64,000 bases of DNA from a virus, in IMG/VR virus record IMGVR_UViG_3300031812_000001, positions 2,474-66,473 of that record. The stretch is one strand, 5' to 3'. The translations under genes were made by a program, and so were the position numbers. Positions 1 through 55,120 of the stretch are shown in pieces; the first letter of the stretch is position 1, and each line of letters begins with the position of its first letter. The notes beneath the pieces were generated by a model. That model searched no databases, had not been told where the DNA came from, and worked only from the letters and a program-made list of their open reading frames with translations.

Positions 1-768
1 GGAACAGCCCCTTGGAACGCAGGTGTCTTTGGCGGTCCTGGCTCCACGGTCGGATCAGACATCATCTACCCTGCCCTTCGATTGATCCGAGTCATCCGCC
101 CGGGCCACGGACCCCAAAGCGAAATCCTAACCGAGGCGCTGGCTTGCCTGAATGCGCTGCTCGATGCATGGAATACAGAGCGGCTTACCATCCCATGCGT
201 CCTCGGGCGCACCTTTCAGGTCGTCTCCGGCCAGCAGTCCTACACGATTGGTCCGACCGGACAGTGGCTTCTGGAAGAGAGGCCGCAGCGCATTGAGGGC
301 GCGAGTCTGATCCGCAACCAGAGCGGTGGGTCACCCATAGAGATTCCGCTGAAGATCCTCATTTTGGATGAGTGGCAGGCCATCCCGGTTAAGGCCATTC
401 AATCGCCAGCCCCTCAGTCTCTCTATTACGATCCGTCACTAAATCTAGGAAATGGAACGGTTTACGTCTATCCCGTTCCGACTGAGGCCAACGACATCGT
501 GCTTCATCTTTGGAATCAGCTCAAGCAGTTTGAGTCACTTTCGGACCAGTTTGTGCTGCCTCAGGGATATCTCAAGGCGTTGCAGTACAGCCTGGCCGTC
601 GAGCTTGCCCCAAGGTATGAAAACTCAGTTCTGAGTCCGCTCGTGATCGACACGGCGGTGAAATCAAAAGCGCAAATCAAGTCAATGAACGTCGTCCCGC
701 TTCCGCTTCGGTGTGACGAAGCGCTGGTTGCGCGGCGCGGCGGATTCGATTGGAGAACCGGAAGATGA
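1..768 (+). CDS. Head-to-tail adaptor (P22 gp4-like), 5' truncated
   Basis: Frame is open from base 1 (GTAPWNAGVFGG...IIYPALRLIRV). LNALLDAW, YVYPVP and LPQGYLKALQYSLAVELAP are typical of podovirus adaptors. Lies upstream of a gp10-like gene. Confidence 0.7.
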   Translation, partial: GTAPWNAGVFGGPGSTVGSDIIYPALRLIRVIRPGHGPQSEILTEALACLNALLDAWNTERLTIPCVLGRTFQVVSGQQSYTIGPTGQWLLEERPQRIEGASLIRNQSGGSPIEIPLKILILDEWQAIPVKAIQSPAPQSLYYDPSLNLGNGTVYVYPVPTEANDIVLHLWNQLKQFESLSDQFVLPQGYLKALQYSLAVELAPRYENSVLSPLVIDTAVKSKAQIKSMNVVPLPLRCDEALVARRGGFDWRTGR

Positions 769-3359
769 GAAAAACCGCATTACTGATTCTCTCTGTTTCT
801 CTTCTCACTGCTGGCCTTCTTGCGCAGAATCCGAATCTGCCGGTGTTCCCGAACAGCATTGCGCAAGACAAGCACCTGCTCGTCGCCGTGGATTCTTCCA
901 TGTCGGTGCTCGCTGCAAACATCAACCAAACAACTCTTTCGATTCCGGTTGCGGACGGGACAAAATTCCGGGCCTATCAGGTGGTGAGAATCGACAACGA
1001 GAGCATTCTGATCTGCTCGGTGAACGGAAACATCCTCAATGTCTGCAATGATGGAAGGGGATTTGGCGGGTCAACCCCAGCAATACACGGAGCGGGAGCG
1101 GAGGTCAAGGGGCTGATATACGCTTGGCACCATAACCAATTGGCGGCTGAAATTAAGGCAATCCAGCAAGCGTTGGGGGTGAACCTGTCTTCTGTGGCCC
1201 CTGCCCAGCATAATCACGATGCCCAGAACATCACGTCTGGAACGCTCCCGGTCAGCCGCGGCGGTACCGGAGCCTCCACCCCTGAGGGAGCTCGACAGGC
1301 CCTCTCTACAGGCTACGTCAGGGTGCAGGCCAATCCACCCGCGAGCTGTTCCGTCGGCGACCTGTGGTTTGACTCCGACGCAACCCCAGGGAAAAATTGG
1401 TTCGGATGCACGGCTGCGAACACGTGGACGTTGCTTGGGTCCAGCTCCATCGAATGGGGGAGCATCACCGGAACGCTATCGAACCAGACGGACTTGCAGG
1501 CGGCCTTGGACGGAAAGGCCAACGCCACCCACAACCACGACAGCACCTATCAGGCCCTCAATCAAAAGAATCAGCCCAACGGCTACGCCGGACTGGACGG
1601 TTCTGGAAAGCTGTCTGCTTCGCAGGTTCCAGATTTGAGCAGCGTTTATCAGCCTCTCGACAGCGACCTGACGGTCATCGCCGGGCTGTCGTGCAGTTCT
1701 GGGCAAATCATCAAGCGCAACGCCAGCGGACTTTGGGAATGCGCGAATGACGCCACCGGAGGAAGCCCAACGTGGGGATCTATCACCGGAACGCTGTCGA
1801 ACCAGACGGACTTGCAGGCTGCTCTGGACGGCAAGGCCAACGCAACCCACAATCACGACAGCACCTATCAGGCGCTCAGCCAAAAGAACCAAGCCTATGG
1901 CTACGCCGGACTGGATGCCTCCGGCCTGCTGGCTGTTTCTCAAATCCCCGGCCTTCCAGCCTCCAAGATCACCAGCGGGCAGCTTTCGACAGCCTACGGC
2001 GGAACCGGACGAGGGGTGACCTGGACGCCCGGCTCCATGCTATTCATCAACTCCTCGAATGTCTTTGAACAGGACAATGCCAACCTGTTCTGGGACAACA
2101 CCAACAAGCGCCTGGGTATTGCAACAAACGCCCCGACGACTTCTCTGGATGTTAACGGCATCGTCCGCGCCAGAAATGGTTTCCGCATCAGCTCGTCGCC
2201 AGCGGCAGGCACATACCTGCGCAGTAATGGCTCTGAATTTGTGGAGAGTTCAATCCAGGCTTCCGATTTGCCTGATTTAAGCGAGACGTACCAGCCCAAA
2301 GACAGCGACTTAACCGCGATTGCTGGCTTGAGCTGTTCTAACGGGCAGGTGATCAAGCTGTCCAGCGGAGCGTGGGCCTGCGGCACAGACGAGCAGGGCG
2401 TCACGTCTGTTTCTGGCACAAGCAATGAGATCACGTCGAGCGGCGGGGCGACCCCCACTTTGAGCATCGCCGACACATTCCGCATCACAGGCAAAACAGC
2501 AACCGCCCCGGTGAAAGCCGCAACGTCTTTGCCGGCAACCTGTGCTATTGGCGACCTGTTCTTCAAAACAGACGCCACAGCAGGCCAGAACATGTATGGC
2601 TGTACGGCCACAAACACGTGGACCCTGTTGGGCGACGGAGGCGGCGGCAGCAGCGAGCCTTCTATCAATACATCTATCATCCAAGACTTTGAGGAATGGC
2701 TTTCACACGGAAATAACGCTACTGCACCCGTGGGCCGTTTGGGTTGGACCGTCAACATGGACAACGGCAGCGGTGCAGCTACGGCCGGATACGAGTCTTA
2801 TTCTTCTTATAACCTCATTGGTGTTGCGGAGATGGCCCCCGCTGGCGTCAACGCCCGCGTCACCCTGCATTTAGGCGCATATGGCATGGGCTATCGTTGG
2901 TTTGCCGCTGCCATTAACTCTTGGGAGTACCAGTTTGTCGTCCGCACCGATAACTACGAGAACACGCAAGTGTCATACATCGTCGGACTTGCTGACGCTG
3001 TAAGTCAGCAGCCGTCAAACGGAATCTGGGTGCGGTACCGTAATAACACCGGATGTACCGTAACAGGATCAGACTCCGGCTGGGTGTACGAAACGCGTTC
3101 CAGCGGCGCCAGCACCACTCAGGCGTCCGGCATGAGCGTGTCCACGGCTACGGTATACCGCATCCGAATCCGCAAGTCCGGCAGCGGCGTGGGATTTTCC
3201 ATGTGTTCCGGCGGGCCAACATGTACGTTGGGCAGCGAAACGGTTATCACAACCAATATTCCAACAGCTAACCTGTCGCCATATATTCAGTCCGTTAGTT
3301 GCGGCGCCGGCTATCACAAATTGTTTGCAGACCGCTTTGATGTTCTGATTCAGAGGTGA
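765..3359 (+). CDS. Tail fibre/spike-like protein with N-terminal signal-peptide-like sequence and internal duplicated modules
   Basis: ATGA overlap with the previous stop. G/S/T-rich, with fibre-like motifs (HNHDAQNITSGTLPVSRGGTG, WGSITGTLSNQTDLQAALDGK x2, NGYAGLD, LFWDNTNKRLGI). Confidence 0.65.
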   Translation: MRKTALLILSVSLLTAGLLAQNPNLPVFPNSIAQDKHLLVAVDSSMSVLAANINQTTLSIPVADGTKFRAYQVVRIDNESILICSVNGNILNVCNDGRGFGGSTPAIHGAGAEVKGLIYAWHHNQLAAEIKAIQQALGVNLSSVAPAQHNHDAQNITSGTLPVSRGGTGASTPEGARQALSTGYVRVQANPPASCSVGDLWFDSDATPGKNWFGCTAANTWTLLGSSSIEWGSITGTLSNQTDLQAALDGKANATHNHDSTYQALNQKNQPNGYAGLDGSGKLSASQVPDLSSVYQPLDSDLTVIAGLSCSSGQIIKRNASGLWECANDATGGSPTWGSITGTLSNQTDLQAALDGKANATHNHDSTYQALSQKNQAYGYAGLDASGLLAVSQIPGLPASKITSGQLSTAYGGTGRGVTWTPGSMLFINSSNVFEQDNANLFWDNTNKRLGIATNAPTTSLDVNGIVRARNGFRISSSPAAGTYLRSNGSEFVESSIQASDLPDLSETYQPKDSDLTAIAGLSCSNGQVIKLSSGAWACGTDEQGVTSVSGTSNEITSSGGATPTLSIADTFRITGKTATAPVKAATSLPATCAIGDLFFKTDATAGQNMYGCTATNTWTLLGDGGGGSSEPSINTSIIQDFEEWLSHGNNATAPVGRLGWTVNMDNGSGAATAGYESYSSYNLIGVAEMAPAGVNARVTLHLGAYGMGYRWFAAAINSWEYQFVVRTDNYENTQVSYIVGLADAVSQQPSNGIWVRYRNNTGCTVTGSDSGWVYETRSSGASTTQASGMSVSTATVYRIRIRKSGSGVGFSMCSGGPTCTLGSETVITTNIPTANLSPYIQSVSCGAGYHKLFADRFDVLIQR
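1452..1916 (+). repeat. Intragenic direct repeat of about 145 bp, two copies (about 1454-1598 and 1773-1916)
   Basis: Near-identical DNA encoding WGSITGTLSNQTDLQAALDGKANATHNHDSTYQAL.QKNQ..GYAGLD twice. Confidence 0.9.
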
Positions 3360-3381
3360 CCTGCATCGTAGCGCCCTTGCC

Positions 3382-3858
3382 ATGCCTCAATTCAACGAAG
3401 CGCTGTTTGGACAACATCTTTTCGGAGAACCAATCCCTCAGCCCGGGGCGTCTCAGGCGGCCTCGCTGCTCGGGGTTGTTTCTGTACTGCCTGTGCGATT
3501 CGGGGTTGTTTCAGTGCGGCCCATGCGATGCGGCTTCATCCGAATCAGCCGTTTTGTGAAGGACATGCAAATGAACCAACGTCCCATAGAACTCCGCCAA
3601 TACGACGCCAAAGACGTGTACTGGGAAATCTCGGACGGGACCATTCAGTCTGTAACCTGGTTCAGTCTCGTAATGTTCCCACAGTCCCCGCCCGGCACAC
3701 AAAGTCTTGTCATTCAGCCTCTCTCAAACACCAGCACCAAGGCTTTCGCCAGAATTTCGGGCGCCTCAAAGGGCTCGTTGCACAAGCTCACTGCGGTGAT
3801 CTGGCTTACGGACGGGCAGTCTAGGGAGTGTTCCCGGTTCGTGCTTGGAGTGGATTAA
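3382..3858 (+). CDS. Putative fibre-tail adaptor protein
   Basis: Position between fibre and gp10-like genes. The C-terminal ~95 aa (DVYWEISDGTIQSVTW...ARISG...LTDGQ) resembles small Ig-like adaptors. Possible internal start at 3565. Confidence 0.4.
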   Translation: MPQFNEALFGQHLFGEPIPQPGASQAASLLGVVSVLPVRFGVVSVRPMRCGFIRISRFVKDMQMNQRPIELRQYDAKDVYWEISDGTIQSVTWFSLVMFPQSPPGTQSLVIQPLSNTSTKAFARISGASKGSLHKLTAVIWLTDGQSRECSRFVLGVD

Positions 3859-5535
3859 ATGCAGGTTCCACTGTTCCAGGGCGGCAGCTACCTTTCGTCG
3901 AGTCCAAGATGGTCGGCGGACCGAACGCTGAATCTGTTCTCGGAGGTGGGCGAGAGCGGCGCGACCAGATCCAAAATGCGCCTGCGTGGGACCCCGGGAC
4001 TGTCGTGGTTCTGTCAACTTCCCTACGGTCCGGTTCGTGGTTTTTGGGCGAACGAGTACCGCCTGTTTGCCGCGTCCGGGTCGTATCTATATGAGATATT
4101 TCCCAATGCAAGTTATGCCTACCTTGGAAACATCGGGAACGACGCCTCGAATTCTCCGGTGCAAATGTTCGCAAACGGGACTCAGCTTTTTATCGTTTCG
4201 GCAGGCAACTGCTATATCCACACTGGCGTAAATCTAATACAATGTGTCCTTGCGCAGATAAGAGGAACAATTAAAACCGTATCGTATACCGCGCACACCC
4301 GCCGCGACAGAGAAGACGTTTATCGCCCAATGGAAGGCGTCTCATCCGGCACGACAGTTCAATGGACCGGCGGCGACCTGTTTGATCCGACAATGGTTGG
4401 CGGCACAATCAAAATCAACGGGCAGACAAAGCATGTGCTGTGGGTTAGCGACAACCGTGAGTTTCTTGTTGTGCAAGAAACCGATCTGGGAAGTCTGGTT
4501 GACGCACCGTATGAGGCCGACATCCCCGTCAAGGCAAAGACGGGCGCCTTCATAGACGGGTACTTTGTGGCGGCCCCGGAAAGCCACAAGTATTTTTACA
4601 TCAGTGACCTGTACAACGGACTGACCTGGGACCCGTTGGATTTTGCGGTGAAGGAGGGCTGGCCCGACAATATCGCGTGCGTTCTGACCGATCACGGGGA
4701 TCTCTGGTTGATGGGGAGGGAAACCATTGAAGTCTGGAGGAACACCGGGAACCCGGACTTTCCGTTCGAGAGGTTTCTTCCGGGCTTCATCCAACAAGGC
4801 GTTGTCGCGCCATTCAGCGTAGTCCGTTTCGCTGATGGAGTGGCATGGTTGGGCGGAGATACTCGCGGCAGGTTGAGCGCGTGGCTCGCGCGAGGATACC
4901 AGCCGGTCAGAATCTCCACTCATGCCATAGAGGAACAATGGGCCTCATATCAGGTGCCCGAAATCGCCGAAGCCTTCACCTACCGATACGAGGGACATGA
5001 GTTTTGGCAAATCACATTTCCGTACGACGAGAAGACTTGGGTTTTCGATGCAAACACTAAATTATGGCACGAGCGTTCTTCCAGGGCCGAGGACAACAGC
5101 CAGAAAAGGCACCGCGCCAGGTGTTGCGCTTCGGTGTGGGGGAAAATCTTTGTTGGCGATTGGTACGACGGAAACATCTATCAGATGACCGGATCTGCTT
5201 ATACAGACAATGGGACCCCCATCCTCAGAATGCGCCAGGCGCCCCACATGCTGGACGAGATGAAGAATCATTTCTACAGCCGCCTGCAACTCGATGTCGA
5301 GACCGGGGTTCAGGTCAGTTCGCCGGAGTTCAATCTATCGTGGTCCGATGATGGCGGCTATACCTTTAGACCTCCAATCACGGCCACCGGCGGCGACCTT
5401 AATGAGTACGCCAAACGCGTAGTCTGGCGCCGGCTTGGAAAGAGCAGGGACCGGGTTTTCAGGATCTCCTCGGAAGCGCCCATTCCGCATGTTTGGATTG
5501 ACGCATACGTGGACGTACTGCCTGGGAATAGCTGA
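3859..5535 (+). CDS. Packaged DNA stabilisation / tail hub protein (P22 gp10-like)
   Basis: LRGTPGL, IDGYFV, DPLDFA..EGWPDNI, GHEFW, LWHER, WSDDGG.TF and WRRLG.SRDRVFRI match the P22 gp10 family. Confidence 0.85.
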   Translation: MQVPLFQGGSYLSSSPRWSADRTLNLFSEVGESGATRSKMRLRGTPGLSWFCQLPYGPVRGFWANEYRLFAASGSYLYEIFPNASYAYLGNIGNDASNSPVQMFANGTQLFIVSAGNCYIHTGVNLIQCVLAQIRGTIKTVSYTAHTRRDREDVYRPMEGVSSGTTVQWTGGDLFDPTMVGGTIKINGQTKHVLWVSDNREFLVVQETDLGSLVDAPYEADIPVKAKTGAFIDGYFVAAPESHKYFYISDLYNGLTWDPLDFAVKEGWPDNIACVLTDHGDLWLMGRETIEVWRNTGNPDFPFERFLPGFIQQGVVAPFSVVRFADGVAWLGGDTRGRLSAWLARGYQPVRISTHAIEEQWASYQVPEIAEAFTYRYEGHEFWQITFPYDEKTWVFDANTKLWHERSSRAEDNSQKRHRARCCASVWGKIFVGDWYDGNIYQMTGSAYTDNGTPILRMRQAPHMLDEMKNHFYSRLQLDVETGVQVSSPEFNLSWSDDGGYTFRPPITATGGDLNEYAKRVVWRRLGKSRDRVFRISSEAPIPHVWIDAYVDVLPGNS

Positions 5536-6047: not shown

Positions 6048-6077
6048 TGCGTCTCAGCAAGCGAATCGGCATTGTCA

Positions 6078-9000
6078 ATGGCAGCGGAAACGATATTTAA
6101 GCTCCAGCCCAATCGGACCATGTACTTGCGCGGGTTCGACCGCAGGGGGGCTTGCGCCGCACTCTGCGAAGCCACCGATACGTCCTTTAAGGTCTACGGC
6201 GTGTTTCGGGACATGGCCGATTTCGCGGTGGTGGTCCTGTGGGATGCGGACAACTTCTTCGAGCATTACTCGATGAAGTACTTGCCGGACTTCAACTTCA
6301 TGGGACTGGTCCTCACCTTTGACCTTCACTACCAGGGACTCCAGCCGATTGACAGTCCGAAGTACAACTGGATTGACTGGGCCACTCTGGACGTGCTTAA
6401 GCCAACCGGCGAGACGATGCAGGTTCGGCTCTGGGACCATGCGACGCTTCAAAGCGGAACGTTCTCGGTTGCCTCGGGGGAGATTACAGTTCAGGCGAAC
6501 TACGTGGCGCCGTATGACCGCATTACGCTGTGGCTCAACAACGTGGCCTTCGACCACATTGTTCCTTGGTTTCCCGAAAACTGCCTGCACGCCGTTTGGT
6601 GGCAGGGAGACCCAAATTACGTCCACTGGGTGAAGATCGGCGACACAACCTATTCATGCATCGAGGATGGCTACAGCAGCGCCCAGATTGCCCAGAACAT
6701 AGCGGCGCAGATCAACGCCAACGACCCCTACTGCACCGCGAGCACGGGTGGAACCTATGGAAACGAGATCACCATCAGGTTGCGCCCAGGCCAGTACGGT
6801 CCGGTGAACGTCACGAGTTCCGACGGCTCGGCCCCCTCTTCCATCTACCGCCCAAGTCCAGAATCAATGGCCGCAATCCTTAGAGACCAGATCAATGAGG
6901 CAAACTGGCCGGCGCTCGGACCGACGATTGCGGTGATGGCCAGCACGTCAGGCGCAACGCTCACCATCAAGGCGGCGCGTTACGGAACGGTCAACACGGA
7001 CGGGACTTCCGTCTCTTGGGTCAGCGGCGACAAGTTCACGGCCATAGCGCCCGGCTCGCCCATATTCATAAACGGCAATCAGTACACGGTGGACTCCGTA
7101 TCCAGCGCAACATCTCTGACGCTGACAACCTCGGCGGGCACGCAGTCAGGGGTCCGATACCTAGCCGAGCGCGGCGGCGACGACGGGAACATGGTCACGC
7201 TCTATGCCACGTGGAAGAACAACTATCTGAAATTCGACAAGTCGGTCCTGAAGTTGTCTGGAGGGTCTTCAGATGTGACGTGGCGCGTTTCCCTAGACTT
7301 CTCGGCCCTGGGCATTGATGAGGTGCGACAGATGTGGCTCACGCTCGCCCCGAAGCTGGCAGACGGCGCCGCCTATCAAGACACTGAGTGGACCGCAACT
7401 TTTACGAACTGGACCGTCAGCGGATTGCCTGAATTGCGCGCGCTGAAGGTTGCCGGGCCGGGAAGCGTCCGCGTCGGAAGCCGCGATGCACGTGTAAGAT
7501 ACAGAGGCTTAAGTTGGGAGCGTCAGTGGTCAAACAACCTGTATGGCGGAACCGCCATGCAGACCAGCGAGCCATTGAGCGAGCTGACCATCCAATACGC
7601 CTGCAACGCTTTCCACGACCTCTGGCTGGGGACGCGTCTTTATCGAGACTGTGGAATCGTTTATGTTAGCGTGGACGGGGGAGACCCAAGGCAACTGGAT
7701 TGCTACCTTGATTCCAATGAACCGATTTTGACTAGAAGGAGAATTTGGTCGGACCTCTTGCCTGGAACGCACTCCGTTACCATATATTTGTCAACAACGA
7801 AAAACCAAAACTCGACCGGAACTAATTTCCTGTTTGATTATTTGGAGGCCGTCGTTCCGTCTGACGTTCCCGATCCGCAACGGGTCTACCAAAACGTCTC
7901 GCTGGCAATAGACTACGACACGGACCACACCTACAAGATCCCACCCGCGCGTCTCGTTTGGAACCTTGACCGTCTCGGAATGCGCGGCGCCGTCAACGAG
8001 TACGTCGGCGTCTTCTGGTGGAATCAGAGGAAGCGCGTCGGAGGCTGGTGGAAGACCTGGGTGTTGAGGTTCGGAGGAACATGGCGGGACGGAGATGAGG
8101 TGTTTCTATCCATAGGCTCGTTCACGATGGGCAAGAGCGTCTTCCCGCAGGATACGGTTTCCACCATCGCAGCGCATTTCAAGTATTTCATAAACCACTC
8201 GCTGGTGAGCGTGTGGGCAGAGACCACAGAGGTGCCAGGGGAACTGAAGATCCACGTGCGCACGCCGATCTGGTCAGACACTAAGAGCGTGAGCAAGTCC
8301 TCGGCAAACGGAACGATTGCCCAGGTCGGCGACCTGTCGGCTGGAATCGAGGGGACGTGGGTCATTGACGACGAAGCCCAGAACCCGATCAACTGGCCGG
8401 CGAGGAAGTGGCACTCTGACCTCTTTGCGCAGGTGGCGGCAAAGGGCTGGGGTGCGGTTGCCGCGTTTTCTATGGAACTGGTCAACCCGCCTGATGACCC
8501 GGACGGCGGCAAGGTGTACGCAGCGCGGTTCTACGAGGGGAACCCGGTCGAGACAGACGTAGGCTTTGCCAATCTCAAGAGCACACACTGCGCGTTCTCC
8601 GCAACCATGCTCGAATACCAGAAGGCCGCCTACAAGGAAATGGCCAAGCTCATGTCCGATGCTGGCCTTACGCCTTGGCTCCAGTTCGGCGAGTTCCTCT
8701 GGTGGTTTTTCTCGTCTAAGGCGCTTGTGGTTACTGCCGTTGACGGCAACGAAATCACCGTGAACGCTGATCACGGATTCTCCTCTGGCGACCGGGTGGT
8801 GATTGCTGGCACTCGCGTGTTGGACGGGACTAGGACGGTCACCCCCCATGCAACGGACCCGAAAAAGTTCACCGTCGGCGGGGAGGTGAATCCCGGACCC
8901 TGGACCGGCACGGGGCAGGTTCGCGGCGGCTCAATGGCCTATTATGATGCCGACACGCAAGCCGCAGCCGTGTCCCAGCTTGGGCGACCGCTTGCCCGCT

Positions 9001-9545
9001 TCACCTGCCAGGATGATGATCCAGAGGTAAATGACGGACAGGATGCCAACTTTTTGGCCGAGCGGCTGAGGTCCCACATGGACGCGATCCGGGAACACGT
9101 GTTGGCGTCGTACCCAAACGCGAAGTTTGAGTGGCTGTTCCCTTACGACGTTAACCATCCGTCCTGCTACTACACCAATGCCCTTCCCTACCCTCAGGGC
9201 GGAAGGATGAACGCTCGCGTGAATCTGCCGCAAGCCCTCACCCAGAAGACAGGAAGCGGACTGTACAGAATCAAAATGGAGGCTTTGTCTTGGGGTTCCT
9301 TTTATCGGAACTGGAGCCGAGCAGCCGAGTCTATCTCGTTCCCATTCAACCAGTTACAGTGGCCCAAGGACTCCTGCGCCTACCTCATCCCGTGGTTCAA
9401 TGGCGGATGCTTCTGGGCTAAAGAGTACCTGGAGTGCATTAGACACGGCCTTCCCCTCATCAACTTCTGGGCCTTCGACCACGCTTGTCTAATGGGTTGG
9501 CCTCTTGCCTTTCCAGAAGAGGAACGCACGGCCCGGGTGATGTAG
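6078..9545 (+). CDS. Large tail-associated protein with C-terminal TIM-barrel-like domain
   Basis: 1155 aa, beta-rich N-terminus. DYDTDHTY, YVGVFWW and LQFGEFLWW resemble TIM-barrel tail proteins described for GTA/phiCbK-like elements. Confidence 0.55.
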   Translation: MAAETIFKLQPNRTMYLRGFDRRGACAALCEATDTSFKVYGVFRDMADFAVVVLWDADNFFEHYSMKYLPDFNFMGLVLTFDLHYQGLQPIDSPKYNWIDWATLDVLKPTGETMQVRLWDHATLQSGTFSVASGEITVQANYVAPYDRITLWLNNVAFDHIVPWFPENCLHAVWWQGDPNYVHWVKIGDTTYSCIEDGYSSAQIAQNIAAQINANDPYCTASTGGTYGNEITIRLRPGQYGPVNVTSSDGSAPSSIYRPSPESMAAILRDQINEANWPALGPTIAVMASTSGATLTIKAARYGTVNTDGTSVSWVSGDKFTAIAPGSPIFINGNQYTVDSVSSATSLTLTTSAGTQSGVRYLAERGGDDGNMVTLYATWKNNYLKFDKSVLKLSGGSSDVTWRVSLDFSALGIDEVRQMWLTLAPKLADGAAYQDTEWTATFTNWTVSGLPELRALKVAGPGSVRVGSRDARVRYRGLSWERQWSNNLYGGTAMQTSEPLSELTIQYACNAFHDLWLGTRLYRDCGIVYVSVDGGDPRQLDCYLDSNEPILTRRRIWSDLLPGTHSVTIYLSTTKNQNSTGTNFLFDYLEAVVPSDVPDPQRVYQNVSLAIDYDTDHTYKIPPARLVWNLDRLGMRGAVNEYVGVFWWNQRKRVGGWWKTWVLRFGGTWRDGDEVFLSIGSFTMGKSVFPQDTVSTIAAHFKYFINHSLVSVWAETTEVPGELKIHVRTPIWSDTKSVSKSSANGTIAQVGDLSAGIEGTWVIDDEAQNPINWPARKWHSDLFAQVAAKGWGAVAAFSMELVNPPDDPDGGKVYAARFYEGNPVETDVGFANLKSTHCAFSATMLEYQKAAYKEMAKLMSDAGLTPWLQFGEFLWWFFSSKALVVTAVDGNEITVNADHGFSSGDRVVIAGTRVLDGTRTVTPHATDPKKFTVGGEVNPGPWTGTGQVRGGSMAYYDADTQAAAVSQLGRPLARFTCQDDDPEVNDGQDANFLAERLRSHMDAIREHVLASYPNAKFEWLFPYDVNHPSCYYTNALPYPQGGRMNARVNLPQALTQKTGSGLYRIKMEALSWGSFYRNWSRAAESISFPFNQLQWPKDSCAYLIPWFNGGCFWAKEYLECIRHGLPLINFWAFDHACLMGWPLAFPEEERTARVM

Positions 9546-9589
9546 GAAGAGCCAGGGTTTCTTTTCGCACAACACTGGAGAGAAGTGTA

Positions 9590-9925
9590 ATGCAAATTGG
9601 AAACGCCGAACGCAGCGAACGAAAACCGATGTACCACAAGATACCCGCTTGTGCCTTGAGGCGACTGGCGGAGCGCTACACCGAAGGGTCCAGGTATGAC
9701 GGCCCCGACGGGTCGATGAAGATTCCGGCTGTGCAGAACTGGCAGCAGGGCAACGCTGAATTTTTTGCCGATGCCTTCAATCATCTGGTCGAACACCTGT
9801 TCCGGTGGGCCTCTGGAGACCGCACCGACGATCATCTGGCGGCAGCGGCATGGGGGTGCTTCGCTCTCATGTGGGCGCAAGAGCAAGGAATCATAGACCC
9901 TCCGCCAGGAAACCTGCGACTTTAG
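9590..9925 (+). CDS. dATP/dGTP diphosphohydrolase-like protein (DUF5664), 3' end interrupted by the IS605 mini-element
   Basis: ALRRLAERYTEG..Y...NWQQG...NHLVEHL..W..GD..DDHLAAAAWG. GGAG RBS. The original frame resumes at 10132 and ends at TGA 10213. Confidence 0.75.
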   Translation: MQIGNAERSERKPMYHKIPACALRRLAERYTEGSRYDGPDGSMKIPAVQNWQQGNAEFFADAFNHLVEHLFRWASGDRTDDHLAAAAWGCFALMWAQEQGIIDPPPGNLRL

Positions 9926-10131
9926 TCGCGGGAGGAATGGCGCTTGCGCGAAGCGCACCATAGTGTGGTTTCCGGGCGCACGCCGACTGCAATGCCAGTC
10001 GAAACCTTGCCCGGATTGGCAGTGGTGCCCCGCTGCCAAGGGCGGCTGTAAACACGCCTAATGTTGGGGATGCCAACCATGTCTGTTGCGTCTCACAATA
10101 AAGCCTTCGACTTCAGTCGAGGGTTGTTTAC
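9895..10131 (+). mobile_element. 237-bp non-autonomous IS200/IS605 (TnpB) mini-element: left end, tnpB 3' remnant/omegaRNA, right end
   Basis: Left hairpin cgccaggaaacctgcgac-ttta-gtcgcgggaggaatggcg. TnpB tail CGFRAHADCNASRNLARIG...RAAVNTPNV (9964-10101). Right hairpin ccttcgac-ttca-gtcgaggg followed by ttgtttac. Removal restores the interrupted ORF. Confidence 0.8.
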
Positions 10132-10151
10132 AGATGGACATCGCCATGACG
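9964..10151 (+). ncRNA. Putative TnpB omegaRNA (reRNA) scaffold plus ~20-nt guide agatggacatcgccatgacg
   Basis: TnpB guide RNAs overlap the tnpB 3' end and right end and extend into the flank, and this is exactly the part retained. Internal hairpin ggcagtggtgccccgctgcc. Boundaries approximate. Confidence 0.55.
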
Positions 10152-10209
10152 CCGAATCGCAAGACCGAAAGGCCATTGCAGGTCAAATTCCAATTTTCGG
10201 AGGACCGGT

Positions 10210-11052
10210 TTGACTCAGAGTAAAGCGATTTTAGTCGTCTCGGATCTCCACTGCGGAAGCATCTATGGGATGCTGCCGCCCGGGTTCAAGACCTCGGACG
10301 GGAAGATCCTTGGACAGAACAGCGGCCAAAAGTATTTGTGGAAATGCTGGCAGGAACTTTCCGCGAAAGTGGCCAGGCTGCCCATTGCAGCCGTAGTGAT
10401 CAACGGTGACATCGTGGACGGACGCCAGCAGGCGCAGCGCGGCACGGAACTGGCCCTGCCGCTGGTGGAAGATCAATCCGCGGCAGCCGAGATTGTTCTG
10501 TTGAACCTAATCTCTGGACTGCCCAAGAAGCCGAAGCTGTACTTCACTCAGGGAACGGAATTTCACGACCAGCGGGCAGGCCGAGAAGTCGAGGTTGTGG
10601 CTCGGGCGATGGGCGCCATCCCGTACTCTGGCGCTGGAACTGGGCGCTACTGCCGCGAGGTTTTGGACTTGGAGGTTGACGGGGTGGTGATCAATTTTGC
10701 GCACGGGATCTCCGTCGCCGGCGGACTTTACCGGGCCACGGCGCCAGACCGCGAGGGAGTGTGGTCAGCCCTGGCCGGCAAAGAGGGCAAGCTGCCTCGC
10801 GCGGATGCGGTTATCCGCAGTCATGCGCACCATTTCGTCCACGTTGAACACCAAAGCAAGCACATTGCCATCACTCCGTGCTGGCAATTGCAGACGCGCT
10901 ACATGCGCAGGCACTCCGTCTACCGAATGTTGCCGGACATAGGCGCCTTGATTCTGTGGATTGACGGCGCCGCCAAACGGAACGGCGGAGACGGAGTGTT
11001 CATTGAGAAGATACTGTGGCCATTGCCGCCAATTGGGACCGTAAAGCTATGA
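10210..11052 (+). CDS. Calcineurin-like metallophosphoesterase
   Basis: SDLHCG, NGDIVDG, GTEFH, AHG and RSHAH metal-binding motifs. TTG start with GGAGG RBS. Confidence 0.8.
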   Translation: MTQSKAILVVSDLHCGSIYGMLPPGFKTSDGKILGQNSGQKYLWKCWQELSAKVARLPIAAVVINGDIVDGRQQAQRGTELALPLVEDQSAAAEIVLLNLISGLPKKPKLYFTQGTEFHDQRAGREVEVVARAMGAIPYSGAGTGRYCREVLDLEVDGVVINFAHGISVAGGLYRATAPDREGVWSALAGKEGKLPRADAVIRSHAHHFVHVEHQSKHIAITPCWQLQTRYMRRHSVYRMLPDIGALILWIDGAAKRNGGDGVFIEKILWPLPPIGTVKL

Positions 11053-11342
11053 GCTCACAGGGTTTTTCTTGGGAGAAGTTCTGGGCTGAACTTGATCAGT
11101 ACCAGAGGTCGCAGACGGTGGCCCCAGAGGGCGCCTTTTCGGTCAACGACTACGCCAAACGCTACGGGATTCCGAGAGAAACAGCCAGGCGTCAACTGGA
11201 GGGGCTAGTTGAGTCTGGGTTGCTGAGAACCAGAATGGTGCTCTTGCCGAGCGCCTCTGGAGTACGTCGCACGACCAGGCTGTTCTGGCCCGCTGAATTG
11301 GAAACGGAGAAGAAAGCCAATGCCAAAAAGCCCAAGCGTTAG
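11049..11342 (+). CDS. Small winged-HTH protein
   Basis: FSVNDYAKRYGIPRETARRQLEGLVESGLL. ATGA coupling. Confidence 0.6.
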   Translation: MSSQGFSWEKFWAELDQYQRSQTVAPEGAFSVNDYAKRYGIPRETARRQLEGLVESGLLRTRMVLLPSASGVRRTTRLFWPAELETEKKANAKKPKR

Positions 11343-11784
11343 CTGGCGGCCGGCGACGCCGGAGGACATCCCGTCCCTTGAACCGCTGGCTCGACAATTC
11401 TACGAAGAATCGGTCAACCTCAAGGACCTTGATTGGGATCGGTTCCGGCAATTGTGGGAAGTTCTTCTGGGCAACCAGGTTGGTTTTATCGCGGTCGCCG
11501 AGAGGGATGGGCAGATCATTGCCGCGATTGGCGGGGTTATCTACCCGGACGCCTACAGTCAAAAAATGATTGCCACCGAGTTTTTCTGGTTCGCCCTGAA
11601 AGAACATCGTGGCTTTGGGTTGCCCCTGCTGCGAATGTTTGAGCAATGGGCGGCCTGCCAAGGCGCATCTGAGGTTCGCATGGTTCACTTGTCAGACGTG
11701 ATGTCGGACAAGCTGTCTCGGGTCTACCGGAAATTGGGCTACCGCCCGATAGAAACCCACTACGCAAAGGAGGTGTCGTCATGA
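11320..11784 (+). CDS. GNAT-fold virion assembly protein
   Basis: RPATPEDIP...EFFWF..KEHRG..GL.LL..FEQWA...VYRKLGY. GNAT genes typically precede podovirus ejection genes. Confidence 0.75.
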   Translation: MPKSPSVSWRPATPEDIPSLEPLARQFYEESVNLKDLDWDRFRQLWEVLLGNQVGFIAVAERDGQIIAAIGGVIYPDAYSQKMIATEFFWFALKEHRGFGLPLLRMFEQWAACQGASEVRMVHLSDVMSDKLSRVYRKLGYRPIETHYAKEVSS

Positions 11785-12599
11785 TTGGAACAACCACCGC
11801 CCTACTGCTGGCCGGAGGGCTTGGACTCGGAGGCAAGGCCTTATCCTCTCTCATTACATCAAGGGCAGCCCAGCAAGCAGCGGAAACTCAAGCCAGAGCC
11901 GCGCAGCACGCCGAAGATGTTGCCAACACGCAGGCGGGCTATATCTACGACACCGCCATGAGCATCAAGGACAACATCCTGGATGCAGGGAAGGAGGCGC
12001 AAGAGAAGCTCTCGGGGTCCTACGGAGAGGGACGCAAGGCCCTGTCTCCCTACATTCAGGCCGGGGAAGAGTCCCTCGGCGGACTTCTGAATCTTGCCCA
12101 AAAGGGCCTCTCTGCGCAAGACGTGTACGCCGACCCAGGCTATCAGTTCCGGTTGCAGGAGGGCGAGAAGGCGCTTCAGCGCTCAGCGGCAGCCAAGGGT
12201 GGAGCGCTTGGCGGCGCAGCGACGAAGGCGCTGGCCCGATACTCACAGGGACTCGCCTCTCAAGAATACCAGAACGCATTCAACCGAAAGTATGGCCTGC
12301 TGTCAACCATTACCGGCTTTGGACGGTCGGCGGCGTCAGAGGCGGCGGACCTTGCTCGATGGTACGGAACAACGTCCGCCACCTCCAAAATGGACACGGC
12401 GGTAAAGGCCGGACAGTTCGCTATGGGCGGAACGAGCGAGGCGGCAAACATGCGGCTCCGTGGCGCCGAATACGGCATCGCCGGAGCAAACGCAAGAGCA
12501 GCCGGAACGGTCGGATCTGGCAATGCTTGGGCGGCTGGCATTGGCGGGGCTACAAAATCAATCCAGGACGTGCTCATTCTTCAAGCGCTCTTGAAGTAA
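11781..12599 (+). CDS. DNA ejection protein (P22 gp7-like)
   Basis: Gly/Ala-rich. PYIQAG and DPGYQFRLQEGEKALQRSAAAKGG.LGGA..KAL.RY.Q.LASQEY motifs. Confidence 0.8.
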   Translation: MIGTTTALLLAGGLGLGGKALSSLITSRAAQQAAETQARAAQHAEDVANTQAGYIYDTAMSIKDNILDAGKEAQEKLSGSYGEGRKALSPYIQAGEESLGGLLNLAQKGLSAQDVYADPGYQFRLQEGEKALQRSAAAKGGALGGAATKALARYSQGLASQEYQNAFNRKYGLLSTITGFGRSAASEAADLARWYGTTSATSKMDTAVKAGQFAMGGTSEAANMRLRGAEYGIAGANARAAGTVGSGNAWAAGIGGATKSIQDVLILQALLK

Positions 12600-35057: not shown

Positions 35058-35261
35058 TTGCCGTACCGTTGCCGTACCGCTCCATGCAAGCTCCTGGAAA
35101 CAGGCGGCTTACGTACAAGACGATCTGCCTTCTAAGCAGATGGTCGCAGGTTCGAGTCCTGCCGGGCCTACCAGTTTTCAATCACTTGCGGCTTCCTCCT
35201 CTCACGGCGCATCTGCCATGTTTTCGGCAGATGCGCCGTTTTTGCCGTCCTATTGCCGTAC
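35058..35261 (+). mobile_element. attP: core = 3' two-thirds of tRNA-Arg(UCU) (35123-35173), flanked by paired arm-type repeats
   Basis: atctgcctTCTaagcagatggtcgcaggttcgagtcctgccgggcctacca gives anticodon arm, T arm and CCA but no 5' part. TTGCCGT(A/C)C at 35058, 35069, 35242 and 35253. Confidence 0.9.
35204..35243 (+). terminator. Intrinsic terminator after the att core
   Basis: acggcgcatctgcc-loop-ggcagatgcgccgt followed by a T-tract. Confidence 0.75.
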
Positions 35262-55045: not shown

Positions 55046-55120
55046 CGCGGGGTAGCGCAGCGGTAGCGCGGCGGACTCATAATCCGCAGGCCGTGGGTTC
55101 GATTCCCACCCCCGCAACCA
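55046..55120 (+). tRNA. tRNA-Met (CAT), initiator-like acceptor stem
   Basis: Full cloverleaf: cgcgggg acceptor, gcgga-ctCATaa-tccgc anticodon arm, ggttcgattcc T arm, encoded CCA. Confidence 0.9.

What the first reader, a model, noticed from the sequence alone, without database searches (positions are those of the whole stretch)
9891..10213. Protein-free TnpB omegaRNA mini-element whose guide targets the empty allele of the phage gene it interrupts
Seen: a 237-bp insert (9895-10131, junction ambiguous by 3 bp) with matching GAC-TT(T/C)A-GTC hairpins at both ends. Between them only the last ~45 codons of tnpB remain (CGFRAHADCNASRNL...AAVN.P). Deleting the insert fuses ...GGA ATC AT|A GAT GGA CAT... 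into an open frame ending at TGA 10211-10213, which overlaps the TTG start of the next gene (TTGA coupling), so the empty site can be reconstructed. Established: IS200/IS605 elements insert 3' of a short motif without duplication, and the TnpB guide RNA spans the tnpB tail, right end and flank. Inference: deletion removed the protein-coding region but kept both ends and the RNA scaffold. A TnpB supplied in trans would cut TCAT+AGATGGACATCGCCATG, i.e. insert-free sibling phages, making this an RNA-only homing or phage-competition device.
Basis: partly seen in the sequence, partly recalled or inferred. Interest (0 to 1): 0.85.

Follow-up and report, generated by a model that had tools for sequence, protein, structure and literature searches.

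The report
Gene-less IS605 mini-transposon in phage

Summary
The sequence features are real. Window 9895-10131 is an internally deleted IS200/IS605 (IS605-type) element. Its first 67 nt match the left end, and its last 168 nt match the tnpB tail plus right end, of ~1.68-kb bacterial elements encoding a Y1 TnpA and a 380-aa TnpB. A covariance model built only from 12 bacterial parents matches window 9958-10131 end to end (175.5 bits, model positions 1-174 of 174). The structure shows strong covariation, including a pseudoknot.

All five insert-free sources found (two contigs and Logan contigs of three hot-springs runs) read TCAT-TTCCT-AGATGG, not TCAT|AGATGG. The "fused" frame has GC3 of 0.35, against 0.65-0.73 for the phage's genes. 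The guide-matching 18-mer is present in siblings, but it lies next to TTCCT. That is one base off the family's invariant TCAT (consensus TTCAT), so cutting of known siblings is unlikely.

PATEs that encode omegaRNAs used in trans are already in print (Meers 2023). This scan has noted similar phage mini-elements on other DNA. Verdict: a new member of a known kind. No RNA, TnpB or host evidence was obtained.

The parts
9590..9925 (+). Upstream phage gene (dATP/dGTP diphosphohydrolase N-terminal domain family). Codons from 9895 on (the last 9 residues, DPPPGNLRL, and the stop) are read from the element's left end.
   Evidence: Translation. Pfam PF18909, E 6.5e-11, residues 6-100 = profile 5-93 of 99. 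In siblings the gene ends ...GIIS-TAG.
9890..9894 (+). Transposon-adjacent motif as it now stands (ATCAT). TCAT is invariant in the family; the consensus is TTCAT.
   Evidence: TCAT in 16 of 16 bacterial copies and all 5 viral copies. T precedes it in 15 of 16 bacterial copies; the window has A.
9895..10131 (+). The 237-nt protein-less IS605-family mini-element (PATE-like).
   Evidence: Sibling alignments break exactly at 9894|10132. Homology to full-length IS ends. Single copy in its own record.
9895..9961 (+). Left-end segment (67 nt) homologous to the left end of full-length elements, stopping before the tnpA start.
   Evidence: Window 9891-9961 = L068 294-364, 84.5%, E 7e-17. Metagenome copies diverge after 9959/9961 into ...ATGGTTGAC, which is the tnpA start MVD.
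9913..9932 (+). Left-end subterminal hairpin (presumed TnpA binding site).
   Evidence: (I17), and (second hit, model positions 147-166).
9964..10101 (+). Last 45 codons plus stop of tnpB. No start codon, and a TAG lies directly upstream at 9961-9963.
   Evidence: matches residues 334-380 of P0008, 89%.
9971..10131 (+). Conserved structured block, the inferred omegaRNA scaffold: eight helices, including a pseudoknot between 10048-10053 and 10126-10131.
   Evidence: RNAalifold. Pair counts: 98.0% of 744 cells paired, 18 of 58 pairs compensatory, 0 of 500 shuffles as high. Covariance-model match to 1-174 of 174 positions, 175.5 bits.
10104..10123 (+). Right-end subterminal hairpin, 8 nt from the element's end.
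   Evidence: I19; helix 8. The right end ...GGGTT(G/A)TTTAC is found in 20 of 20 bacterial copies.
10132..10151 (+). Flank that would be the omegaRNA guide if transcription runs through. The identical 18-mer is present in sibling phages.
   Evidence: Position is inferred from established TnpB biology. The 18-mer occurs once in the window and in one other IMG/VR contig.
10134..10223 (+). 29-aa small ORF (MDIAMTPNRKTERPLQVKFQFSEDRFDSE). In siblings it is in frame with the upstream gene across a single TAG, so it may be that gene's detached C-terminal tail.
   Evidence: GC by codon position 0.48/0.34/0.72. Three of 5 sibling substitutions fall on its third positions. An HMM of 41 homologues aligns across the stop to residue 111 at posterior ~0.5-0.6.
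10210..11052 (+). Next phage gene (metallophosphoesterase-like), with a TTG start behind GGAGGA.
   Evidence: The Pfam PF00149 hit is weak (E 0.0022, 18.9 bits, below the 21.5 cut-off).

Best explanation
Window 9895-10131 is a non-autonomous, internally deleted IS605-type element (a PATE). One deletion of about 1.44 kb removed tnpA and the first ~335 codons of tnpB. It left the 67-nt left end with its hairpin and the last 168 nt: the TnpB tail, the whole conserved RNA-structure block and the right-end hairpin. The element sits 3' of a TCAT motif at the boundary between a dGTP-diphosphohydrolase-like gene and a 29-aa ORF in a hot-spring phage, in the same orientation as the surrounding genes.

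Shown: its identity, its boundaries, the deletion junction, the intactness of both ends and of the structured block, the existence of empty sibling alleles, and the absence of a nuclease or transposase gene in the record.

Inferred: it arrived by TnpA-mediated single-strand insertion from a host IS. It can still be moved by a host TnpA. When read through from the phage operon, its RNA could be trimmed and loaded by a host TnpB, which would then cut only the exact TCAT|AGATGG... joint left by its own excision. That is the ordinary 'cut-and-copy' retention of IS605 elements. It would not cut the known sibling phages, whose site reads TTCCT|AGATGG....
For: - TnpB tail: 93% identity over all 45 aa to the C-termini of 362-380-aa TnpBs carrying PF01385 and PF07282.
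- Both ends are homologous to full-length elements. In L068 the element spans 294-1973 and has tnpA (PF01797, E 8e-41) plus tnpB (380 aa).
- The right end stops at TTTAC in 20 of 20 copies and TCAT precedes the left end in 16 of 16.
- A covariance model built without the window hits 9958-10131 at 175.5 bits, E 2e-47, over positions 1-174 of 174, not truncated.
- Covariation: 18 of 58 pairs compensatory and 98% of cells paired, against 37-44% when partners are slid.
- Identical-codon use among same-residue pairs rises from 0.59 (2924/4950) before the junction to 0.77 (484/627) after it.
- Related mini forms occur in other viral contigs, one of them twice in a single contig, so minis of this family do move.
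- Element-like sequence is at summed depth 230-4600, against 3-33 for the phage, in the same hot-springs runs. Copies there continue into tnpA after 9959/9961.
- The element is co-oriented with all flanking ORFs.
- Literature: PATEs often encode omegaRNAs that need TnpB in trans (Meers 2023 preprint, passage). TnpB 5'-processes longer transcripts into omegaRNA, with scaffolds of 79-466 nt (Nety 2023, abstract and section 13).
Against: - Only one copy of this 237-nt form is known, so its own mobility is unproven.
- The flanks do not rejoin into any observed empty allele; there is a 5-nt TTCCT discrepancy. A clean single TnpA insertion into a sibling-like site is therefore not what is seen, and a second event or an unseen ancestral allele is needed.
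- A weaker upstream helix of the parents (A4 columns 79-106, just upstream of the retained block) is not retained. It shows 90% of 140 cells paired and 3 of 10 pairs compensatory; 56 of 500 shuffles reach that pair count. The natural 5' end of this family's omegaRNA is unknown.
- No promoter-like site was found in 9300-10500.
- No RNA data, no identified host, and no TnpB or TnpA in the 79%-complete record.
- No Rfam family matches.
- Shorter minis lacking helices 1-4 also persist, so keeping the scaffold is not required and may be an accident of where the deletion ended.
Confidence: 0.62

Rival explanations
1. Dead relic. The element is a decayed IS fragment that is no longer moved by TnpA and makes no functional RNA. 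Retention of the structured block reflects only the youth of the deletion and where it happened to end.
For: - Single copy.
- The 5-nt mismatch with every empty allele.
- No promoter-like site.
- No TnpA or TnpB in the record.
- The non-consensus A at the -5 motif position.
- Other minis of the family have lost most of the scaffold.
- One weakly supported upstream helix is missing.
Against: - Both ends, both hairpins and the cleavage motifs are intact and close to those of full-length copies.
- All eight helices are kept, with no disrupting change.
- The deletion ends only 7-10 nt before helix 1.
- Closely related full-length copies are abundant in the same samples.
Confidence: 0.28
2. The element is an RNA-only homing or phage-competition device: with host TnpB its guide cuts insert-free sibling phages, which are destroyed or converted.
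For: - Sibling phages without the insert exist and carry the identical 18-nt protospacer.
- The scaffold block is complete.
- TnpB-bearing relatives are abundant in the same communities.
- 'Transposon non-restorative homing' into coinfecting phages is listed as a category in a 2026 review (Table 1 passage).
- A thermophilic archaeal TnpB tolerates weak TAMs for editing (abstract only).
Against: - In all five empty sources the 5 nt before the protospacer are TTCCT. The A of TCAT, invariant in 21 of 21 copies, is a C there.
- The TCAT that is present in siblings lies 5 nt too far upstream, so the guide is out of register.
- The predicted target string occurs in no IMG/VR contig.
- TnpB2 and IscB cleavage is reported as highly sensitive to TAM mutations (Meers 2023, figure legend passage).
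- The fused ORF used to justify the reconstruction is not a real frame.
Confidence: 0.07

Closest known systems
PATE-like minimal IS200/IS605 elements of Geobacillus stearothermophilus (Meers et al. 2023 preprint, PMC10055086; passages read)
   Same: Protein-less, bounded by left and right ends like those of resident IS605-family elements, and said there to 'often encode omegaRNAs' that must be used in trans by TnpB from other elements. Mobilisation is by a TnpA encoded elsewhere.
   Different: This one lies in a phage genome rather than a bacterial chromosome, and its record has no TnpB at all. Natural empty alleles are available, and they do not match the element's own flanks exactly. The paper's Extended Data figure on PATEs and its supplements were not seen.
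Full-length IS605-type elements with Y1 TnpA plus TnpB, e.g. the copy in Ectothiorhodospira shaposhnikovii (L068 294-1973). The canonical references IS608 and ISDra2 are recalled, not fetched.
   Same: The same ends, hairpins, TCAT target motif and TTTAC right-end cleavage motif. Insertion without duplication. The guide RNA overlaps the tnpB 3' end and the right end.
   Different: It lacks tnpA and about 335 of 380 tnpB codons (about 1.44 kb deleted).
Shorter minis of the same family in other viral contigs: a ~117-nt form (L006/L002) and a ~50-nt single-hairpin form (L003/L007)
   Same: The same TCATAG left junction and TTTACA right junction. All are protein-less and in viral contigs.
   Different: They lack helices 1-4 and the pseudoknot (the ~117-nt form) or everything but one hybrid hairpin (the ~50-nt form). 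Of the loci tested with the model, only the window's mini keeps the full structured block.
Free-standing homing endonuclease genes and 'intronless homing' of T-even phages (review PMC13565253; passages)
   Different: Here the nuclease would have to come from the host, recognition would be by RNA plus TAM, and the known competitor alleles lack the TAM. This is a resemblance in idea only.

Membership tests
IS200/IS605 family, non-autonomous derivative (PATE) | Subterminal imperfect hairpins at both ends and no terminal inverted repeats | tested here: met
   Hairpins at 9913-9932 and 10104-10123, present as direct (not inverted) copies, 83% over 23 nt. The DNA fold has z = -3.78.
IS200/IS605 family, non-autonomous derivative (PATE) | Ends homologous to those of elements encoding a Y1 (HUH) TnpA | tested here: met
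   Window 9891-9961 and 9964-10131 match L068 294-364 and 1806-1973. L068 384-797 is PF01797 Y1_Tnp, E 8e-41.
IS200/IS605 family, non-autonomous derivative (PATE) | Insertion 3' of a conserved 4-5-nt motif | tested here: met
   TCAT in 21 of 21 copies, and T before it in 15 of 16 bacterial copies.
IS200/IS605 family, non-autonomous derivative (PATE) | Scarless relation to the empty site (no duplication, no loss) | tested here: not met
   There is no duplication, but all five empty sources carry an extra TTCCT that the insertion allele lacks. A second event or an unseen ancestral allele must be assumed.
IS200/IS605 family, non-autonomous derivative (PATE) | No transposase or nuclease gene inside | tested here: met
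   Only a start-less 45-codon TnpB tail. The own record matches only residues 334-380 of P0008.
IS200/IS605 family, non-autonomous derivative (PATE) | Evidence of mobility (several copies of the same form, or excision products) | tested here: inconclusive
   One copy in the 66.5-kb record. The insertion is polymorphic among ~95.5%-identical phages. The ~117-nt relative has two copies in one contig. No excision junction was looked for in raw reads.
TnpB omegaRNA (OMEGA guide RNA) | Lies on the tnpB strand, overlaps the tnpB 3' end and the right end, with a 3' hairpin within ~10 nt of the guide | tested here: met
   The tail is at 9964-10101 and the hairpin ends at 10123, 8 nt before the element's end. 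The feature is as described by Nety 2023, section 13.
TnpB omegaRNA (OMEGA guide RNA) | Conserved secondary structure supported by covariation | tested here: met
   58 pairs, 98.0% of cells paired, 18 pairs compensatory, 0 of 500 shuffles as high, slid controls 37-44% paired.
TnpB omegaRNA (OMEGA guide RNA) | Scaffold complete relative to the parent | tested here: inconclusive
   The full model match covers 1-174 of 174 positions. However, a weaker helix upstream of the retained block is absent, and the family's true 5' end is unknown.
TnpB omegaRNA (OMEGA guide RNA) | Transcribed, processed and bound by a TnpB | not testable with these tools
   Reads were laid on DNA runs.
TnpB omegaRNA (OMEGA guide RNA) | Guide matches a natural target that carries the TAM | tested here: not met
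   Siblings have the protospacer but with TTCCT before it. The TCAT-adjacent target is absent from IMG/VR.
Rfam-curated RNA families | Score at or above a family's gathering threshold | tested here: not met
   The window has only two tRNA hits. In 9700-10400 the best hit is Acido-Lenti-1 on the minus strand: 16.6 bits against a threshold of 37, E 0.35.

The most novel reading that the evidence does not exclude
The element is, or recently was, an RNA-only gene drive in a hot-spring phage population. It entered at a consensus TTCAT|AGATGG site, and with host TnpB it cut and converted insert-free genomes. The only empty alleles that survive carry TTCCT, a synonymous TCA-to-TCC change in the last Ser codon that destroys the TAM. 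On this reading they are natural drive-resistance alleles. The sibling string TTCCTAG differs at one of seven positions from the family's left-junction string TTCATAG. The window's present ATCAT flank would have arisen by a 5-nt slippage between the two TCAT repeats.
Probability: 0.06. Interest if true: 0.8.

Novelty: new member of a known kind. Interest (0 to 1): 0.36.

Why it matters
This is a clean natural example in which four things are all visible in public data: a protein-less IS605 derivative with an intact guide-RNA block, its full-length parents, shorter decay products, and insert-free sibling genomes. It could serve as a test case for whether PATE-borne omegaRNAs are really used in trans, and whether such elements behave as drives between co-infecting phages. 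It also shows that a reconstructed empty site must be checked against real empty alleles: here the reconstruction was 5 nt and one reading frame off. As a kind of element it is already described, so it does not open a new class.

Tried and rejected
Searches that gave nothing:
- Rfam at gathering and at E<=10 found no omegaRNA family. The Acido-Lenti-1 hit is far below threshold and was dropped.
- BLASTN of the insert against 50,697 phage records found no match.
The closest parents' ends were therefore never seen. Parents at 63-74% protein identity from genome contigs were used instead.
- The scaffold pattern scan of viral contigs gave 53 loci. None of the 53 matched the model at E<=0.01, so they were treated as chance.
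- A TnpB scan of viral contigs found only one relative, L133, at 61%.
- The promoter scan found 0 sites.
No contig listed spans the whole stretch, and X1 contigs break inside the element. This says nothing about absence.

Readings considered and rejected:
- Boundaries one to two nt further right (TCATA(G)...TTTACA(N)), suggested by A after TTTAC in all 5 viral copies. The 20 bacterial copies give TTTAC|. The conclusion about the sibling motif holds in every register.
- Non-IS explanations (terminator, REP-like repeat, intron), given the homology to IS ends.

Left unexplained: how the 5-nt difference arose. Three routes need two or three events each. (1) Insertion after TTCAT in a TCA allele, then TCAT-TCAT slippage. 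(2) Insertion after ATCAT, then loss of TTCCT. (3) An unseen TCAT|AGATGG ancestor.

Supplements of Meers 2023 and Nety 2023 (the PATE figure, and per-ortholog omegaRNA lengths and TAMs) were not seen and may bear on the scaffold boundary and the TAM.
Full report
WHAT IS THERE. The window is bases 2474-66473 of a 66,473-base IMG/VR virus record estimated 79% complete. Between 9894 and 10132 lies a 237-nt insert. It has a hairpin near each end, CCTGCGAC-TTTA-GTCGCGGG at 9913-9932 and CCTTCGAC-TTCA-GTCGAGGG at 10104-10123. The two are direct copies of each other, 83% identical over 23 nt. The frame 9964-10098 followed by TAA reads CGFRAHADCNASRNLARIGSGAPLPRAAVNTPNVGDANHVCCVSQ. It has no start codon, and a TAG lies directly upstream. 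Searched against longer proteins, 142 of 146 candidates scored E<=0.01. The 12 best (P0004-P0015, 362-380 aa, PF01385 plus PF07282) are 93% identical over all 45 residues. The named relatives include Thermochromatium tepidum (91%) and Hydrogenophilus. The record holds no other copy of the insert and nothing else like TnpB: only residues 334-380 of P0008 match.

This gave 68 loci in bacterial genomes at 47-74% protein identity, from Ectothiorhodospira, Methylocaldum, Nitrospirae, Gemmataceae, Thermomonas hydrothermalis, 9 loci in Verrucomicrobium sp. 3C and 21 in one Chlamydiae MAG. BLAST of window 9890-10140 against them splits the insert into two blocks. Window 9891-9961 matches the stretch upstream of the genes (L068 294-364, 84.5%, E 7e-17). 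Window 9964-10131 matches the last 168 nt (L068 1806-1973, 85.4%, E 5e-50). L068 carries a 137-aa Y1 transposase at 384-797 (PF01797, E 8e-41) and a 380-aa TnpB at 801-1943. The parent is therefore a canonical IS605-type element of about 1.68 kb, and the window's element is that element minus about 1.44 kb. In 20 of 20 bacterial copies the right end stops at ...GGGTT(G/A)TTTAC with a variable next base. In 16 of 16 the left end is preceded by TCAT, and by T before that in 15 of 16. This fixes the element at 9895-10131 and gives the motif as TCAT (consensus TTCAT); the window has ATCAT. One reservation: all five viral copies (the window, L006, L002, L007, L003) have A after TTTAC, against 0 of 20 bacterial copies. 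The boundary could therefore be 1-2 nt further right in this subfamily.

IS THE GUIDE-RNA BLOCK COMPLETE? An alignment of the last ~260 nt of 15 parents becomes much more conserved from TGTGGT onward. That is exactly where the window's retained part begins. Among 7 TnpB lineages, the fraction of same-residue pairs using the identical codon is 0.59 (2924/4950) before the junction and 0.77 (484/627) after it. RNAalifold on 12 parents plus the window predicts a series of stems. I added a pseudoknot between the loop GTAAA(Y) and the last six bases G(R)TTTAC (UA:7, CG:5, UG:1 at the variable pair). Counting then gave 58 pairs, 98.0% of 744 cells paired, 18 pairs with compensatory changes, and 0 of 500 shuffles as high. 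Slid controls were 37-44% paired. A covariance model built from the 12 parents alone hits window 9958-10131 at 175.5 bits, E 2e-47, over model positions 1-174 of 174, not truncated. The structured block that is clearly conserved is thus fully present, and the deletion ends only 7-10 nt before its first helix. Against completeness, RNAalifold on the longer alignment adds one more hairpin just upstream (A4 columns 79-106). It has weaker support: 90% of 140 cells paired, 3 of 10 pairs compensatory, and 56 of 500 shuffles reaching that pair count. The window lacks this hairpin. Published scaffolds range from 79 to 466 nt, and the only constant feature is the 3' hairpin within 10 nt of the guide (Nety 2023, section 13). 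So 168 nt is in range but not proven sufficient. No Rfam family covers this RNA.

THE EMPTY SITE. The upstream gene (9590-) belongs to PF18909, the dATP/dGTP diphosphohydrolase N-terminal domain. Residues 6-100 align to profile positions 5-93 of 99, so the junction at residue 102 is at the domain's very end. A scan of viral contigs with this protein gave 55 loci. One of them, L008, is 100% identical over residues 1-102. Alignment shows that L008 lacks the insert but reads GGAATCAT-TTCCT-AGATGGAC. A 25-mer scan of metagenome contigs found one more contig, L132, with the same allele. Logan contigs of four hot-springs runs were laid on 9400-10700. X2 (depth 4.8) and X4 (depth 23.2, a 12-kb contig) join 9894 to 10132 with TTCCT between. 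X3 joins 9894 to 10135 with TTCCTAGG. X1, the best holder (0.88 of the words), has the phage at depth ~33 with contigs that break inside the element. These sources may not all be independent samples. The string TCAT+AGATGGACATCGCC occurs in no IMG/VR contig. The 18-nt protospacer occurs in one other contig, that of L008. The siblings are 95.5-96.5% identical to the window over 5-13 kb of flanks, and the alignments break exactly at 9894 and 10132.

With TTCCT present, the upstream gene reads ...QEQGIIS-TAG. The next codon, in the same frame, is the ATG of a 29-aa ORF (window 10134-10223). That frame has GC by codon position of 0.48/0.34/0.72, like the neighbouring genes, whose GC3 is 0.65-0.73. 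But an HMM of 41 of the 54 homologues (those of 150 aa or less, non-identical) aligns across the TAG (read as X) into MDIAMT..., up to residue 111, at posterior ~0.5-0.6. In the window the element makes the upstream protein end ...GII-DPPPGNLRL and leaves the small ORF's ATG intact.

WHAT THE GUIDE WOULD HIT. By established TnpB biology, the guide is the ~16-20 nt after the right end (10132 onward), and cleavage needs the motif directly 5' of the matching target. That combination, (A/T)TCAT+AGATGG..., exists only as the joint that precise excision of this element would leave. In every known sibling the protospacer is preceded by TTCCT, and the sibling's own TCAT lies 5 nt upstream, out of register. 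[quoted passage not shown] Feng et al. report that an archaeal TnpB accepts weak TAMs for editing (abstract). Cutting of siblings is therefore unlikely but not excluded. Notably, the sibling string TTCCTAG is one base from the family's left junction TTCATAG, and the difference (TCC against TCA) is synonymous. This is the basis of the low-probability 'drive and resistance allele' reading. How the 5-nt difference arose is unexplained, since each scenario needs at least two events.

CONTEXT. All ORFs from 6072 to 12599 are on the + strand, as is the element. No promoter-like site lies in 9300-10500. Any RNA would therefore come from phage read-through and would need 5' processing, which TnpB can do on its own mRNA (Nety 2023, abstract). 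In runs X1-X3 the element's columns have summed contig depth of 230-4600, against 3-33 for the flanks. Contigs that match 9891-9959/9961 with 3 differences then continue into ...ATGGTTGAC, the tnpA start. Full-length relatives are thus abundant in the same communities, although the phage's host was not identified. Other viral contigs hold shorter relatives. One is a ~117-nt form, present twice in one contig, that keeps 43 nt of the left end and the last 72 nt. Another is a ~50-nt single-hairpin form. Neither keeps the scaffold.

COMPARISON AND VERDICT. This is a PATE-type derivative of an IS605-family element. [quoted passage not shown] 2023. Homing into coinfecting phages appears as a category in a 2026 review table. 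This scan's own notes list many similar phage mini-elements on other DNA: 103 findings in at least 79 genomes hold the search words (unchecked here). None shares sequence with this one. I rate it a new member of a known kind. It is well documented because parents, decay series and empty alleles are all at hand.

Noticed in passing
window 10214-10237: The start of the metallophosphoesterase-like gene (CTCAGAGTAAAGCGATTTTAGTCG) resembles the right-end region 10092-10119, matching 20 of 24 positions with one 4-nt gap (D1 and D6). Siblings have it too, with one A-to-G change. It may be chance, or a trace of target or recombination preference.
   Followed up: no
window 9893-10136 and L008 2800-2815: In insert-free siblings the dGTP-diphosphohydrolase-like gene and the 29-aa ORF are one reading frame interrupted only by a TAG directly followed by ATG. 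Homologues run on past this point, so this looks like a split gene or a stop-start coupling site. The element landed exactly there.
   Followed up: partly
L006 7215-7336 and L002 5578-5701 (one IMG/VR contig): Two copies, in opposite orientation, of a ~117-nt mini-element of the same family: 43 nt of left end joined to the last 72 nt. This shows that minis lacking the scaffold still multiply.
   Followed up: partly
L007 10265-10316 and L003 727-777: Elements of ~50 nt made of TCATAG, one hairpin of the left-end type, and TTTACA. They look like the product of recombination between the left-end and right-end hairpins.
   Followed up: no
right junctions: window 10132; L006, L002, L007, L003: All 5 viral copies have A (3 of 5 have ACG) after TTTAC, whereas 0 of 20 bacterial copies have A. 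Most metagenome copies also match through 10132. The right end of this hot-spring/viral subfamily may be a base or two longer.
   Followed up: partly
Read laying loose ends before 9895 (runs X1, X3): Some metagenome copies have ...CTTAC rather than TCAT directly before the left end's first base. They are a subfamily with a different target motif, or right-end-to-left-end junctions of some kind.
   Followed up: no
L080-L104, L125, L126 (OY970369.1) and L071-L118 (Verrucomicrobium sp. 3C): Large expansions of related TnpB elements: 21 of the 68 loci come from one Chlamydiae MAG chromosome and 9 from Verrucomicrobium sp. 3C. Several copies have broken tnpB (L071, L077, L116).
   Followed up: no
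window 55046-55117 and 35106-35169: A full tRNA (71.2 bits, anticodon loop CUCAUAA) and a weak partial tRNA-like match (31.1 bits) elsewhere in the phage.
   Followed up: no
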